DNA from: Eledone cirrhosa
Taxonomy: Eukaryota
Direction of reading: 5' to 3'
Length of the DNA: 64,000 nt
Assembly: GCA_964016885.1 (NCBI GenBank)
Contig: OZ024749.1
Coordinates: 22,072,001 to 22,136,000, forward strand
Shown here: positions 1,255-49,690 of the stretch, in pieces
Layout: every line of letters starts with the position of its first letter
Numbering within the stretch: the first letter of the stretch is position 1
The notes under the pieces: generated by a model
What the model was told of the DNA's origin: nothing
What the model saw: the letters and a program-made list of their open reading frames with translations, nothing else
The model's database searches: none
Position numbers and translations under genes: made by a program

Positions 1255-1494
1255 TATTTCTTTATTAGCCACAGGGGCACAAAAGAAGGGGACAAATACA
1301 AAGGGGGAAGTTTACATACAATAAAAACGTGTAAAATGTTATCACAAATGCAATTTAAAAGTTAGTCGATTTTCCCCAATAGAGGGAGAGAGTTTATATG
1401 GGTAACACATACCCCCGAAAAAAAATGTGCAACCCTCATCTCCAGGAGTACGAAGAGCTTGTACTCCTTTCCTCTCCTCCTCCTTTTCCTCAAC

Positions 1495-4400
1495 CTACAG
1501 GCTGATATAGAGAGAAGGCCCATTCACTCGGGCCATTCTCGCCACTTTCACCCACCTTTCATAAAACTTGCTGGGGTACAGCACCTCTCTCTCCATCCTG
1601 ATTCTTCTTCCAAAGTGGTATTTGAAAAAAAGAATCAGTTGTTGGCCGGAGAGAAAGGTCTCTGACCTCAGCCCTTTCAACCTTGTCCACCATACAACCT
1701 CTTTCGCCATAGCTATCACACAAAGGAAAACCGCCTCTCCTTCGTTTTTGAAGGAGGGTGGCGGTTTGATCATGACAATGGACTCGGTGGTCAACTGGAT
1801 TGGTCCCACCTGCAACAATAGTCGTTCTACATAGCCCCACAGGTCAGTGACGCCCGGGCAGTGTATGAATGCGTGCGCGACGGTTTCTTCGTCTCGCACG
1901 CACCTCGGACAGATCTTTTTTGCAGGGTCCCTGCCCGGGCGCCCATGTCTGTAGAGCTTGTCTCGAACTGGTAGAGCTCCTCGGTAGCACTGCCAGGCCA
2001 GGGACTTTTGGAAGTTGTTCATCGGTCCCGGGCGGAAGGTCCTACCGAACAGACTGGCCAGTTCATCTTCCTCTACGCCTAGAGTTTCACCGAGCGCGTC
2101 GTCGCACTTGCTGCGGACCAACCCTCTATAGAATGACGAAGTGGAGTCTCCACTGATCGCCGGGTCCGCCTGCCAGAGGGCTGTGAGCACCTGAGCACAT
2201 TCGATGTGCCAGTCGCCCATTTTCCTCGGTCTCTGCTTGACCCAGGACTGCAGCTCGGTCAGCGAGACGAGTCGTGGGAAGGCTCGCCTCACGAACGGGG
2301 CCCACACCGGTTGTCCGGTGAGGAATACGTAGAGATGCCGCAGCCTGAGCGCGTGTTTGCGCATCGTCAACCACGGCATCCCCAGCCCTCCGTTAGAAGG
2401 GTGTTGGCAGCAGATGGATCTTCTCACCAAAGGAGCCCGCCTCTTCCAAAGGAATCCGAAGAGCGCGCGCTCCATTTTGGCGAGCGTTTTGGCTGGACAA
2501 GGCACGACGGTCAAGCGGTAGTAGATGGCGGACGCTATAAAAGTGTTCGCCAACTCCGCTCGACCTTTCAAGGATAGTTTGCACTCGGCCCACTTCTGGG
2601 TGAGTGCAAACACCTTGGCCGTCACTTCGTTCCAGTTCTTCTCCACCTGGAGATCCGGACCAAACCAGACCCCGAGCAGCGTTACCGGTCCTTCCGTCCA
2701 GCATCTGACGACGCCATCGGAAGGCATCGGTCTGCCTCTCCACGATCCGAGTTGCAAACCGATGGACTTGTCCCGGTTCAGCTTCGCTCCTGTGAGACTT
2801 TCGTATTCCTTTAGTAAGGTGCCGACTTGCTCGATTTGCGAGGCGCTCGACACCATTACTGCAACGTCGTCGGCGTAGGCCGACGCCGCTTTCCGCAGTC
2901 CCGGTTCCAGAGGGATGCCCTGCAATAGCTCCAGCTTCTGCAGTAGTGGCTCGAGAGTCAGTACGTACAGAAGGGAGGAGAGAGGGCATCCCTGTCGAAT
3001 GGATCGCGTAATATGGAACGGCTCCGAGAGGTAACCGTTCACCTTGACCCTTGAGCAGATGTTGCTGTTGTGCATTGCAGCAATCCAGCCCCTGAACACG
3101 GGTCCGAAGCCTGCCGCCTCGAGCACCGCATCCAGGTAACGATGGTCAACCCTATCGAAAGCCTTAAACTGATCCAAGTTGATCAGGGCCCCACCGAAGC
3201 CGGGTTTACACCCTACCCTCTCTATGATGTATCGCATGAGGTGGAGGTTGTCGTGTATGGACCTGGTTGGGATCGCGCATGTCTGCGCTTCTCCCACCAG
3301 GTTCTCGACGACAAGCGCCAGCCTCTTTGCCAACACCTTGGCCAAAATCTGTAACTCTGTGTTTAGCACAGTTATGGGCCGGAAGTTGCCTATGTCATCC
3401 CCCTTATTCTCGTCCTTCCTGATTAGTGTGACCACGCCCTCGGTTACAGAACTGGGAATTCTCCCGTTCTGTTGCCAGTTGCAGTAGACCGCTTCCAGGA
3501 GACCGGAGAATAAGTCCGGCATTGCTACGTAAAATTCGTAGGGTAGACCACCGAGACCTGGAGATTTGCGTTTGCCGCATTGGCTCAGCGCGTCCCCTAT
3601 CTCAGTGGCTGAAATCGGTTTTCGCAGAACTTCGCCTCGCTGTCCGAGAGTCGCGGTAGGCCGTCGAGGTATGGACCGAAATCCATAGCCTCTCCCGGCG
3701 CGCCGCTCCCCCCGAACAGCCGAGCAAAGTGCCGCTGAAAAGCCGCACACATCTGCTTCGGCTCACGTATCACGCGTCCGTTTTGGTCCTTCAAAGACCG
3801 AATCGTGGACTTGTTGCCACTTTTTGCCTCCGTCACTCGGGCCCAGCTAACAGCTTTGGCTCCCTCGTTTCCCAGAGCACGTATTTTGCTTCTGACAACG
3901 CAGCCCTCGTGCTTTGCGTCGAAGAACTGGTCCAAGGCCGTTCTCGTTGCTAGCACGCTGGCTACGTTGCCACTTCTAATTGTCTCTTCTACTTTATCTA
4001 CCAGTTCCTTCTCGGTTCTATTTCTATCTAACGCTAATTCTTTACTAAAAACTATCGAGTCTAATCTAACTGCCCTCTTGAGAGAGTACCACCATCTGTT
4101 GTTGACAATGGCCCCTGTCAAGTGCTGTTTAACTAAAGTGCTAATCCGTCTACTGTAGGCTTTGCTTGTCGGTAACGACAAGTTCAGCTTCCAGTAGCCG
4201 GGTCCTTGTCTATGGGTTCTATCAAGGTTGGCCATGCAGGTCACTAGTTTGTGATCTGAATAGGCAACCATGAACATTTGTGGACAGCTTAACATGTCCC
4301 TATCCTTATTTCTAACTAGAACCCTATCTAGGTACGATCTAGATGTTCCGCTACGATTACTCCACGCCCACAGTGGCGCAGTCGAAAAATCTAGTCGATA

Positions 4401-4932
4401 TCTATCGGCCAGGTCAAATCGGTCGATTAACTGTTTGAGGCTGTTACACCCCCCCTTTATCGGGACATGCTCCCACATAGTCCCAACGTGCATCTAGGAT
4501 TCCATTCCAGTCCCCCACTAAAAGCAAGGAGCGGGACGTTCCCAGAAAAGTCTCTAGACGTTTGAAGAAGTCTGGCCGCGGTGTCCCGGATGGGGCATAT
4601 GCGGCCACCAGCCTGAAGGCTCCACCTTCACTACCGTCAACGTCTAGGACCACCAGTCGACCCTCCGGGTCCAGATGTACCGTCTGTGTTACGAGGCCCA
4701 GGTGTTTCCGCAGCAAAACGGCAACTCCGCCCCCACCCCCCGGTTGACAGAGAGATGCGTAGATCTCAAAGTCATCGAAGATGGGGGCCAGCTGTCGCTC
4801 GCCGTGGATCCTGGACTCGCAAATGGCTACCATTTCCAAACTGTGCGACCTGAGGTCGTTTAAGAGTTTGCCCTGTTTCCAGGGCATCCCCAGGCCGCGT
4901 ACGTTCACACATCCAACTCTTATATTGGCCAT
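1495..4932 (-). pseudogene. ORF2 of copy A: APE endonuclease, reverse transcriptase and C-terminal CCHC, with two frameshifts
   Basis: Pieces 4444..4932 (NVRGL, ICES, GDWN), 3597..4493 (SYLDR, SDH) and 1495..3750 (KAFDRV, RQGCPLS, YADD, CPRC..ET..H...C). Confidence 0.92.
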
Positions 4933-47765: not shown

Positions 47766-47798
47766 GTGGGCGGCAGAGCCAAAGGAGAGTGTAGAGAC

Positions 47799-49690
47799 CT
47801 ACCTTTCCGCTTCCCGGGGTTCGGGTTGCACGACTTCCATGGGGTCGGGGGTGTTGGGTGAAGGGGTGTCTTGTGGTGGTGTGGGGTCGTCAGTGTGTGG
47901 TGGGGTTGGGGTGTTTGGAGTTGTGTTGGGGAGGGGAAGGGGAGGGGAAGGGGGGGGAAGCTTTTTAGTAGGACGCGGTTTATGGGTTTGACAGAGGGTG
48001 GTCCTACGTCCTCCTTAAAATCCTTTTTTAGTTTTTGGTAGAGGTTCATTGGGATCTTTATTAGTTTTAAATGTGGGTAGTTTTCTGAGGAAACAAAGTT
48101 TACCCCTTCGGTTTGTACCGAAGGATTATTGTATATGAGTTCATTTAATTTATTATTGTTTCTGTTGATGTAAGTATAGTGTAATGTCTTTTTTTCGGAT
48201 GGTGTGAGTGTTTCGAAGAGGGGAGGGGCAGGTTTGGTTTTGTTTGTTGCTGGAGGGGTGTTTCCTGTTTTGTTGGATTGTGTTGAGATTTGGGTGGGGG
48301 TTGTTTGGCCTTGTGTGTTTTGCACATGTTTTCTTTTTTTCCTTTTAATCTGTCTGAAGGACTCCGTTTCTTCCTCCGAATTCGTTGGGTTATCTTCAGT
48401 GTTGGAGGGGAGAGGTATGTTTGCTGGTAATGTTTCCGTGTTGGTTTTCTTTGTGGGGGAGATGGATGTCACTATGTTAGACTGTGTTGTGTGTTGTGTC
48501 TGCGGTGGTTGTGTTGTTTTATTGAGTGAGAGGTTGGGTGGGCCTGTATTTTGTTTTGGGGTAATGTGTTGTGACTGTTTGTGTTGTGGTGGTGTTGTGG
48601 TGGTGTTGTGGGACTGAGTTTTGTTGTTTGTTTATCTGTTGTGGTGGTGGTGGTGGAGCTGGTGTTGATAGCAGGGTTTTCTTTTTGTTGAGTTGGGGAC
48701 AAGCGGCTTTCAGGTGCCCTCTGCCTGCACAGATATGACAGGACGGCCTTCTCCCCTCCACGCTAATGTTTATATACCCGTGGTCCTCTAATAGGATTCT
48801 GTCGGGTATTTGGGCGATGCGTTCAGGCTTCATTTGCACTACAAGTTCTATACCTGTTCCACTGAACGCATTGCCTGTGGTTTTCCCAATGGAAATCACG
48901 TTGTCATTCGCTGGATCGATGAGCCAGCTATGAGCCAGCAGTAGTCCACATCTGGCATCATTGCATCCAGCCATATGCGTTGAGTTCTTTTCCCCATATA
49001 AGATGGATAAAAGGTGAAATTTTTCGAACGAATCGGTGACAAAGCACATTTTTTTGCCGCCGATTCGTTCTTCATGATAATTGCTAGGCTTCCATACAGT
49101 CTGTCTTTTCTTATGAAAGTGGTTTCATTAAGTACTTCTGTGAGTACTGTTTTGATATCTGCTTGAGAAGGCTGTTCAGGTTTTTTTGTACTGTTGTTGA
49201 TGGTCCGAAACTTGACCGTTCGGCTTTCAATGTCTTTCGTGAATTCTTGAGGCATTTTTACCGATAAAATACCATTCTCTCCTTCACTTATGTATTGTTT
49301 GGCGTCCGTGATCCTTCGTACCACATCTGAAATGTTTTCCGCTATATAAGTCAAAGATTTCTTTGTTTTCTGTGCAAATGAAATCTTGTCGTCTGCTTTG
49401 CTTTCTGATATGGTGTTATTTTCAAATGTTATTTTTGTGTTTGTTGTGTCTTTGTTTGTGTTATTAGTATTGTCATGCAATTTTTCAAATTTTTTTTTTT
49501 CGTTGTTGGAATCCATGTCCAGATTTGTGTTTTCGTCATTTTTTTTCTCCGCAGATTCGTCTGTTTTTATTTTAATTTTTCCTTCCTTCTCTATGACGTT
49601 AGTTGGGAAGGAAGGGAGGACTAAAGCGTGCGAGCTTACAACTCTTACCGCTGTCCCCCCACCACTATTTTCGTTCGCTGCGTTTAACAT
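47799..49690 (-). pseudogene. ORF1 of copy G, several frameshifts
   Basis: 48896..49690, 48519..49049 (CHICAGRGHLKAAC) and 47753..48472; the true C-terminus is MEVVQPEPREAER*. Confidence 0.85.

What the first reader, a model, noticed from the sequence alone, without database searches (positions are those of the whole stretch)
1490..47810. ORF2 of this LINE family is built as an intron: splicing would yield an ORF1-only RNA with a regenerated stop codon
Seen (minus strand): every copy retaining the ORF1/ORF2 junction has a consensus 5' splice site at the ORF1 end: A AAGG|GTGAGT (4973), B GAG|GTAGGT (10797), C GAG|GTAAGT (16710), G AAG|GTAGGT (47802). In all seven copies with a 3' end, the ORF2 stop is a TAG preceded by a pyrimidine tract (CCTTCTCTCTA...) and followed by G, matching a 3' splice site (1495, 7318, 13374, 17310, 41782, 42119, 44379). 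Joining them gives AG|G TGA in C and AG|G TAA in G, so ORF1 ends ...AER* exactly as unspliced. A has a phase-1 donor and its stop is shifted by one base (G|GT TGA); stub E likewise has GG TGA. B, apparently frame-shifted by a small deletion, gives EVKK*. Inference: co-variation of donor phase and downstream stop across diverged subfamilies suggests selection for a subgenomic mRNA that excises the whole EN-RT gene while keeping ORF1 and the 3' UTR. This could set ORF1:ORF2 stoichiometry or spawn ORF1-only elements like the known half-L1 (HAL1) type. I do not know of this arrangement being described for this family.
Basis: partly seen in the sequence, partly recalled or inferred. Interest (0 to 1): 0.92.

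Follow-up and report, generated by a model that had tools for sequence, protein, structure and literature searches.

The report
LINE RNA zips ORF2 ends together
In this abundant animal retrotransposon group, the RNA around the start of the reverse-transcriptase gene is complementary to the RNA around its stop codon 3.4 kb away, a co-evolving predicted zipper that probably controls when the enzyme is made and explains most of the apparent splice-acceptor signal.

Summary
The elements are young L1/Tx1-type LINEs in head-to-tail (TCTA)n arrays.

The main finding is new: about 105 nt around the ORF1 end, splice donor, spacer and ORF2 AUG are complementary to about 110 nt around the ORF2 stop and 3' UTR start. 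The predicted duplex (64-82 bp) holds in all 14 families sampled and sets the AUG opposite the stop. It co-varies: cognate arms beat swapped arms in 75 of 78 family pairs (controls 30-48).

This pairing accounts for the 'pyrimidine tract', TAG and following G. The acceptor is lost in family K, TAG retention matches silent-site chance, 5 of 12 families regenerate no stop, and no spliced retrocopy was found (0 versus 2,438 unspliced C/G junctions). The donor G|GTRRGT is invariant in 14 of 14 families and three reading phases, so it looks selected.

Best reading: a long-range RNA switch that locks ORF2 initiation until an ORF1 ribosome opens it, with a U1 site inside. Family B, whose ORF2 starts at an AUA overlapping the ORF1 stop, fits this. 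Splicing stays possible but untested: no run on record as RNA was available.

The parts
1174..6870 (-). Element A: LINE, 5'-truncated near the ORF1 start; ORF1 and ORF2 frameshifted in this copy
   Evidence: self-BLAST and ORFs; Pfam on the family
4912..5017 (-). A 5' arm of the long-range helix: ORF1 end, donor (first intron base 4973, phase 1), ORF1 stop, spacer, ORF2 ATG 4932-4930
   Evidence: duplex -112 kcal/mol with the A 3' arm
1410..1519 (-). A 3' arm: last ORF2 codons, TAG 1497-1495, purine tract and first two 3' UTR hairpin regions
7006..12800 (-). Element B: near full-length; family trait: ORF1 reads through the donor (phase 0) and stops at TAG 10761-10759, overlapping an ATA ORF2 start at 10762-10760
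10740..10842 (-). B 5' arm (donor 10797)
   Evidence: duplex -87.9 kcal/mol
7239..7344 (-). B 3' arm (TAG 7320-7318)
13015..16917 (-). Element C: 5'-truncated in ORF1; family with over 1,000 copies
16660..16755 (-). C 5' arm (donor 16710, phase 2, ATG 16682-16680)
   Evidence: duplex -91.7 kcal/mol
13294..13400 (-). C 3' arm (TAG 13376-13374)
16961..18969 (-). Element D: 5'-truncated C-family copy, 3' arm only (TAG ends 17310)
41476..41835 (-). Stub E: 3' end of a further family (TAG ends 41782)
41839..44076 (-). Element F: 5'-truncated C-family copy (TAG ends 42119)
44077..49900 (-). Element G: full length, ORF2 open (EN-RT-zinc finger), ORF1 frameshifted
47745..47846 (-). G 5' arm (donor 47802, phase 2, ATG 47765-47763)
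   Evidence: duplex -98.0 kcal/mol
44303..44403 (-). G 3' arm (TAG 44381-44379)
1..1170 (-). 5' part (5' UTR and ORF1 start) of a further, C-type element running out of the window

Best explanation
The LINE RNA carries an imperfect inverted repeat bracketing ORF2. SHOWN in silico: the last ~45 nt of ORF1, the donor, the ORF1 stop, the 27-45 nt spacer, the Kozak context and the first ~22 nt of ORF2 pair antiparallel with the last ~25 nt of ORF2, its stop and the first ~80 nt of the 3' UTR. ORF2 becomes a 3.4-kb loop whose AUG lies opposite its own stop. The two arms change together across families, and the long helix competes with local 3' UTR hairpins. INFERRED: the RNA switches between two states. 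Closed, it hides the ORF2 start site, covers the 5' splice site in whole or part, and unfolds the 3' UTR hairpins. A ribosome finishing ORF1 melts the 5' arm, reinitiates at ORF2 and frees the 3' UTR next to the nascent ORF2 protein. This would keep ORF2 low, tie it to intact full-length RNA and favour cis retrotransposition. The invariant donor is most likely a U1 snRNP site of a retained-intron type, with splicing suppressed or minor. Probability that the helix is a selected RNA structure: about 0.85. That its main job is coupling ORF2 translation to ORF1 and to the 3' end: about 0.5.
For: Duplex of 64-82 bp, -77 to -99 kcal/mol, in 13 of 13 families plus family O. z = -3.6 to -9.5 against dinucleotide-shuffled UTRs in 11 of 11, and better than every other window of the element in 10 of 11. 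Cognate arms more stable than swapped arms in 75 of 78 pairs (mean -37.5 kcal/mol; the three exceptions are among sisters A, I, J); five control region pairs gave 30-48 of 78, means -1.3 to +2.9. 18 of 45 well-paired columns show double changes; 2 of 2,000 permutations reach the cognate pairing count. Sense strand more stable than antisense in 12 of 13; G.U 183 versus A.C 134 cells. Fixed register: the G of UAG pairs with Kozak -4 and the next G with -5 in 11 of 14; K1/K2 have T at -5 and A at +1 where the other 11 have C and G. The donor's partner follows the donor variant in O, J, H and K1. The helix gains 18-36 kcal/mol over the separately folded arms. A naturally deleted copy forms 69 arm-arm pairs. 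Family B starts ORF2 at AUA overlapping the ORF1 stop in 13 of 13 fetched copies; 1 of 3 read in full has 1,150 open codons. That is the layout of termination-reinitiation (PMC5972666, passages).
Against: All structure evidence is computed. The helix appears in the global minimum-energy fold of the full 3.8-kb region in only 3 of 10 families, and one of two internally deleted copies gives only 15 arm-arm pairs. No significant excess of A>G changes in the arms of young copies (7 of 4,633 A versus 74 of 81,814 outside), so no trace of ADAR action on the duplex. Families share ancestry, so the 78 pairs are not independent. The automatic arm alignment is out of register in places. The co-variation does not separate selection from a copying mechanism. 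No datum bears directly on translation. B copies were chosen by likeness to the window's B.
Confidence: 0.5

Rival explanations
1. One reading: ORF2 is a regulated intron. Part of the RNA is spliced from the ORF1-end donor to the ORF2 stop, giving an ORF1-only mRNA as in Ty1/copia short gag RNAs, and the helix sets the spliced share. In the spliced RNA the exon-1 end would pair locally with the 3' UTR and remove its hairpins, which could explain why such RNA is never retrotransposed.
For: Donor invariant in 14 of 14 families and in phases 0, 1 and 2. AG at the ORF2 stop in 12 of 14. Stop within three codons of the join in 7 of 12. The predicted spliced RNA folds exon 1 onto the UTR hairpin region in A, C and G, not in B. 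Precedent in Ty1/copia (PMC5580714 abstract and section 8; PMC3735527 abstract).
Against: K1/K2 are young and intact yet lack the AG (an AAG|GT lies 7 nt on, without a pyrimidine tract). TAG conservation is at silent-site level and the tract is weak, with an upstream AG in 7 of 13. 5 of 12 families regenerate no stop. 0 spliced copies for A, I, C, C2 and G. The acceptor letters are explained by pairing.
Confidence: 0.25
2. The helix serves mainly reverse transcription or RNP assembly: it cyclises the RNA so that ORF2 protein finds its own 3' end, like the 5'-3' cyclisation of Ty1, with little effect on translation.
For: The 3' arm overlaps conserved 3' UTR hairpins with arm-specific changes. 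No trans-mobilised spliced copies were found, as strict cis preference predicts.
Against: The 5' arm is centred on the ORF1 stop, donor, Kozak and AUG rather than on the 5' end of the RNA. Most copies are 5'-truncated, which is normal for LINEs and does not discriminate.
Confidence: 0.15
3. The inverted repeat is a by-product of repeated copying between the two regions (template switching or conversion) and has no RNA function; the donor is only an Arg codon plus a stop plus inherited letters.
For: Copying would also make the arms change together. All three stop codons fit GTRRGT in phase 2. The global fold shows the helix in only 3 of 10 families.
Against: G.U bias on the sense strand. The pairing runs into both coding ends of ORF2 with a fixed register. 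The donor persists in phase 0 (B) and phase 1 (A, M), where no stop overlaps it.
Confidence: 0.08

Closest known systems
Tx1-clade microsatellite-targeting LINEs (Kibi, Koshi, crocodilian Tx1)
   Same: Two ORFs, APE endonuclease-RT-zinc finger ORF2, insertion into microsatellites. Kibi and Koshi target (TC)n and (TTC)n (PMC4494074, passages). L1-Tx1 families are listed as recently active in Octopus vulgaris (PMC13282606, passages).
   Different: Targets here are (TCTA)n and (ATT)n, with head-to-tail arrays. No ORF2-bracketing helix or ORF1-end donor appeared in the passages read.
Long-distance RNA pairing in tombusvirus readthrough and luteovirus frameshifting
   Same: Pairing between a recoding site and an element 3.5 kb away near the 3' end, proposed to link polymerase translation with replication (PMC3542737, passages).
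   Different: Here the host is a non-LTR retrotransposon, the duplex is about 70 bp, and it covers a start codon and a splice donor rather than stimulating readthrough or frameshift.
Termination-reinitiation in SART1 and human L1
   Same: ORF2 is made from a bicistronic RNA. SART1 needs a structure downstream of an overlapping stop-start, and L1 crosses a 63-nt spacer (PMC5972666, passages; the primary papers were not held).
   Different: The structure here is long-range and pairs the ORF2 start with the ORF2 stop and 3' UTR.
Ty1/copia spliced short gag RNA (EVD, BARE)
   Same: A conserved donor near the end of the structural gene. U1 binding both allows splicing and blocks premature termination of the full-length RNA (PMC5580714 abstract and section 8; PMC3735527 abstract).
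   Different: Those are LTR elements with a short intron and demonstrated spliced RNA. Here the intron would be all of ORF2, the acceptor is not universal and no spliced RNA is shown.
Human L1 SpIREs and HAL1
   Same: L1 RNA has working splice sites and spliced RNAs can retrotranspose (PMC5860796, abstract). HAL1 as ORF1-only L1 derivatives is recalled; only a search listing was seen.
   Different: SpIRE splicing lies in the 5' UTR and ORF1 and is a dead end. No spliced or ORF1-only genomic copy was found here for the five families covered.

Membership tests
L1/Tx1 group of non-LTR retrotransposons | ORF2 with APE endonuclease, RT and C-terminal zinc finger | tested here: met
   Pfam Exo_endo_phos, RVT_1 and zf-RVT above cut-off for family K; best solved relative is human L1 ORF2p, E 3e-52
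L1/Tx1 group of non-LTR retrotransposons | Separate ORF1 with a CCHC zinc knuckle | tested here: met
   CX2CX4HX4C read directly in ORF1 of B and G; no Pfam family reached cut-off
Tx1 clade | Target preference for a repeat or microsatellite | tested here: met
   Copies end in and follow (TCTA)n for A-J and (ATT)n for K/M; flanks inspected by eye, not counted
Tx1 clade | RT phylogeny grouping with reference Tx1 elements rather than L1 | not testable with these tools
   No named Tx1 reference sequences were held; the label Tx1-like rests on the features above
Copia-type spliced subgenomic RNA system | Conserved 5' splice site at the end of the structural ORF | tested here: met
   14 of 14 families
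Copia-type spliced subgenomic RNA system | Conserved acceptor and a stop created by the splice | tested here: not met
   AG absent in K1/K2; no early stop in 5 of 12 other families; TAG conservation at chance level
Copia-type spliced subgenomic RNA system | Spliced RNA observed | not testable with these tools
   No run on record as RNA was listed
HAL1-type ORF1-only elements | Genomic copies with ORF1 joined to the 3' UTR | tested here: not met
   0 matches; the patterns cover A, I, C, C2 and G only, 5 of 13 families
Virus-type long-distance regulatory RNA pairing | Compensatory co-variation of distant arms | tested here: met
Virus-type long-distance regulatory RNA pairing | Pairing forms in cells and changes protein output | not testable with these tools
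   Needs probing and reporters; global folds show it in 3 of 10 families

The most novel reading that the evidence does not exclude
One RNA switch decides three fates. Closed, the RNA keeps ORF2 as a retained intron with its donor, AUG and stop zipped together. Opened by the ORF1 ribosome, it makes ORF2 and exposes the 3' UTR for cis retrotransposition. If U1 wins before the 3' arm is transcribed, the whole EN-RT gene is spliced out, and the new exon junction folds over the 3' UTR hairpins so that the ORF1-only mRNA can never be copied back. This would be a LINE that uses a gene-sized intron and a long-range helix together to set protein ratio and template choice.
Probability: 0.25. Interest if true: 0.88.

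Novelty: new variant of a known kind. Interest (0 to 1): 0.7.

Why it matters
How LINEs make little ORF2 from a bicistronic RNA, and how ORF2 protein prefers its own RNA, are long-standing open questions. This clade offers a concrete, co-varying RNA element that links the ORF1 stop, ORF2 start, ORF2 stop and 3' UTR. At least 14 natural variants are available for swap and rescue tests, and the clade has tens of thousands of genomic matches (61,862 first-look candidates) with many intact copies. Nine completed literature searches and Rfam (0 matches in window 1000-20000) showed no such structure in a non-LTR element. Most subscription papers and Repbase entries are outside that library, so absence from print is not established.

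Tried and rejected
RNA test: no RNA holder listed among 5 runs. Four of the five runs, all contigs of unrecorded kind, were laid on a tandem C+A locus (L111). None of the 15 joints shown, of 771, joins a donor to an ORF2 stop, and one contig of a second organism crosses the C donor unbroken. This is no evidence either way. Metagenome collections: two scans gave no relative, so no DNA context from another species was obtained. The earlier-findings index gave nothing in 3 look-ups. P0023 (40% identity) has no closer family in this genome, so the depth of the architecture beyond this clade is unknown. An unbiased census of ORF2 starts was not obtained: the 14 families were found by similarity to chosen queries and by reading neighbouring array members, one representative copy each. 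An ORF2-only mRNA through the TTTTCAG before the AUG was rejected: that AG occurs only in A, I and J. An ADAR editing trace in the arms was not found. Pairing between the 5' UTR and the distal 3' UTR showed no clear conserved helix (inspected by eye). Premature poly(A) signals in ORF2 are rare (AATAAA in 2 of 13, ATTAAA in 4 of 13), which weakens a pure telescripting role for the donor. The stop-codon tally returned nothing because the pattern failed, and was not used. The gapped pattern had no genomic positive control; it was checked only on simulated joins. The ESM Atlas gave only generic EN-RT clusters.
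Full report
Setting. The window is G000:C9:22072001-22136000 of a 3.0-Gb genome. Its minus strand holds nested, head-to-tail LINE copies separated by (TCTA)n repeats. ORF2 has endonuclease, RT and zinc-finger domains, and its best solved relative is human L1 ORF2p. The closest named proteins, at 60-67% identity, come from Argonauta hians, so the clade is probably octopod; that is inference. The clade is large: 61,862 first-look candidates for the ORF2 C-terminus, with many intact frames. I call it Tx1-like because of its domains and microsatellite targets; no reference tree was possible.

Observation. I fetched neighbouring arrays and relatives and defined 14 families by one representative each: A, I, J, H, G, B, C, C1, C2 and O (mostly in TCTA arrays; O's flanks were not read), and K1, K2, M1 and M2 (ATT arrays). 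ORF2 DNA identity among 13 of them is 69-96%.

The donor. G|GTRRGT is present in 14 of 14 families, with -1, +1, +2, +5 and +6 invariant. On the ORF2 tree only 20% of 155 four-fold silent sites are invariant. The donor occurs in phase 2 (most families, where it contains the ORF1 stop), phase 1 (A, M1, M2) and phase 0 (B), so the stop codon alone does not explain it. In C, C1, C2 and M1 its +2 to +4 bases are unpaired in the predicted helix, so pairing alone does not explain it either. A U1 site under selection is the simplest reading.

The acceptor. It is weaker than it looked. K1 and K2 end in TAA|A. TAG changed once on the tree, and 57% of 49 two-fold purine sites changed once or never. The upstream 20 nt are 60-80% pyrimidine, and 7 of 13 families have another AG 6 nt upstream. 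Joining donor to stop gives a stop within three codons in A, B, C, G, M1, M2 and O, but a long extension in H, I, J, C1 and C2 (J read from the sequence). A's sister families I and J share its 3' sequence but have a phase-2 donor, so the claimed phase/stop co-variation is a one-sided change. Two genome-wide pattern searches found 0 spliced copies. They would have caught A, I, C, C2 and G, against 2,438 unspliced C/G junctions and 1,868 candidates for the A ORF1 end. Strict cis preference could also give this zero.

What is really there. The pyrimidine-rich spacer after each donor is complementary to the purine-rich tract after the same element's ORF2 stop. The pairing extends about 45 nt into ORF1 and about 22 nt into ORF2 on one side, and about 25 nt into the ORF2 end and about 80 nt into the 3' UTR on the other. 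Predicted duplexes have 64-82 bp and -77 to -99 kcal/mol; for the window's own copies they are -112 (A), -88 (B), -92 (C) and -98 (G). Against shuffled UTRs z is -3.6 to -9.5 in 11 of 11, and the cognate UTR beats all other windows of the element in 10 of 11, G being the exception. Cognate arms beat swapped arms in 75 of 78 family pairs, mean -37.5 kcal/mol, while five control region pairs give 30-48 of 78. In an automatic two-arm alignment 18 of 45 well-paired columns have double changes and 2 of 2,000 permutations reach the observed pairing. The sense strand is favoured in 12 of 13. The register is fixed. The G of UAG pairs with Kozak -4 and the following G with -5 in 11 of 14. K has T at -5 and A at +1 where the other 11 have C and G. 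In O, J, H and K1 the 3' arm carries a near-perfect complement of that family's own donor variant. The 3' arm alone folds into local hairpins, and the long helix gains 18-36 kcal/mol over the separate folds, so two alternative states are plausible.

Against. The helix is in the global minimum-energy fold of the whole 3.8-kb region in only K1, H and C2, 3 of 10 tested; such long folds are unreliable in both directions. Of two internally deleted natural copies, one forms 69 arm-arm pairs and one 15. Young copies show no significant A>G excess in the arms. Family pairs are not independent, and co-variation could come from copying between the arms, although the G.U bias and the fixed register in coding sequence argue for RNA-level selection.

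It is a young family (793 candidates, best 40 at 99% or more). In 13 of 13 fetched copies ORF1 runs through the donor and stops at a UAG overlapping an AUA start of ORF2; one of three copies read in full has 1,150 open codons from that AUA. A non-AUG start overlapping the upstream stop is the layout of termination-reinitiation, which tolerates start-codon changes in caliciviruses and is described for SART1 and L1 (PMC5972666, passages). It indicates that ORF2 is made from the unspliced RNA by ribosomes leaving ORF1.

Mechanism. Shown in silico: arms, register, co-variation, donor invariance. Inferred: the closed helix blocks ORF2 initiation and partly masks the donor; an ORF1 ribosome opens it, reinitiates, and releases the 3' UTR hairpins beside the new ORF2 protein. 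It works like the long-distance pairings that link polymerase translation to replication in tombusviruses and luteoviruses (PMC3542737, passages). The donor may act like the copia EVD donor, where U1 both permits a short RNA and protects the full-length one (PMC5580714, abstract and section 8). I give this reading 0.5, regulated splicing of ORF2 0.25, a mainly reverse-transcription role 0.15 and a functionless repeat 0.08; the first three can coexist.

Literature seen. Abstract only: PMC1636488, PMC3735527, PMC5860796. Passages: PMC5972666, PMC3542737, PMC4494074, PMC13282606, PMC9115989. Abstract and one section: PMC5580714. Ty1 cyclisation and HAL1 were seen in search listings only and otherwise recalled. 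No supplements were read; TE libraries in supplements may already list these families. Nine completed searches returned no title or abstract start describing an ORF2-bracketing helix or a whole-ORF2 intron in a non-LTR element.

Verdict. Observation confirmed; interpretation partly supported. The intron model is unproven and weakened on the acceptor side, but the search exposed a co-varying long-range RNA structure that joins the start and stop of ORF2. New variant of a known kind, interest 0.7.

Noticed in passing
window about 1146-1075 (minus); also 5' UTRs in L093, L104, L108: The 5' UTRs of families C, C2 and H carry a GTAAGT...TTTGTAG unit of about 68 nt with a T-rich tract, a better intron candidate than ORF2. 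A, G, C1 and B have weaker GT(A/G)AGT...YAG units. All copies read retain it.
   Followed up: partly
window 10759-10762 (minus); L209-L221: Family B: ORF2 begins at ATA overlapping the ORF1 TAG in 13 of 13 fetched copies; L210 has 1,150 open codons.
   Followed up: yes
L159-L180: A sister clade (K, M) forms head-to-tail arrays in (ATT)n instead of (TCTA)n, so target specificity has switched within the clade. Many intact copies.
   Followed up: partly
L113:4830-5800 (+), L123 about 7040-8160 (-), L095 about 1960-4030 (-): Internally deleted copies. L113 and L123 keep both helix arms; L095 joins a 5' UTR to mid-ORF2. Whether these are amplified non-autonomous families was not checked.
   Followed up: partly
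5' ends in L093, L101, L104, L108, L111: Full-length copies start with an (A/G/T)GACGTG-like motif resembling the DPE of internal Pol II promoters (consensus recalled, not tested), followed by GC-rich hairpins.
   Followed up: no
L114-L120: Five A-family copies read TAG|A instead of TAG|G, and a contig of a second organism shows a related 3' end with TAG|A.
   Followed up: no
window 30930-33879 (-): A second, unrelated LINE in pieces: RT domain at 30930-32216 (Pfam RVT_1) with endonuclease-like frames upstream; CR1/L2-like by recall.
   Followed up: no
window 36218-38575 (-), 20936-21430 (+), 61868-62491 (+): Penelope-like frames by recall (RT-like and GIY-YIG-like motifs); no Pfam hit for the 785-aa frame at E 0.001.
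   Followed up: no
window 21500-24070 and 61750-62984: A long degenerate (CCA/CAA)-rich tandem region, and a 315-bp inverted repeat at 98.7% identity (61750-62064 against 62674-62984).
   Followed up: no
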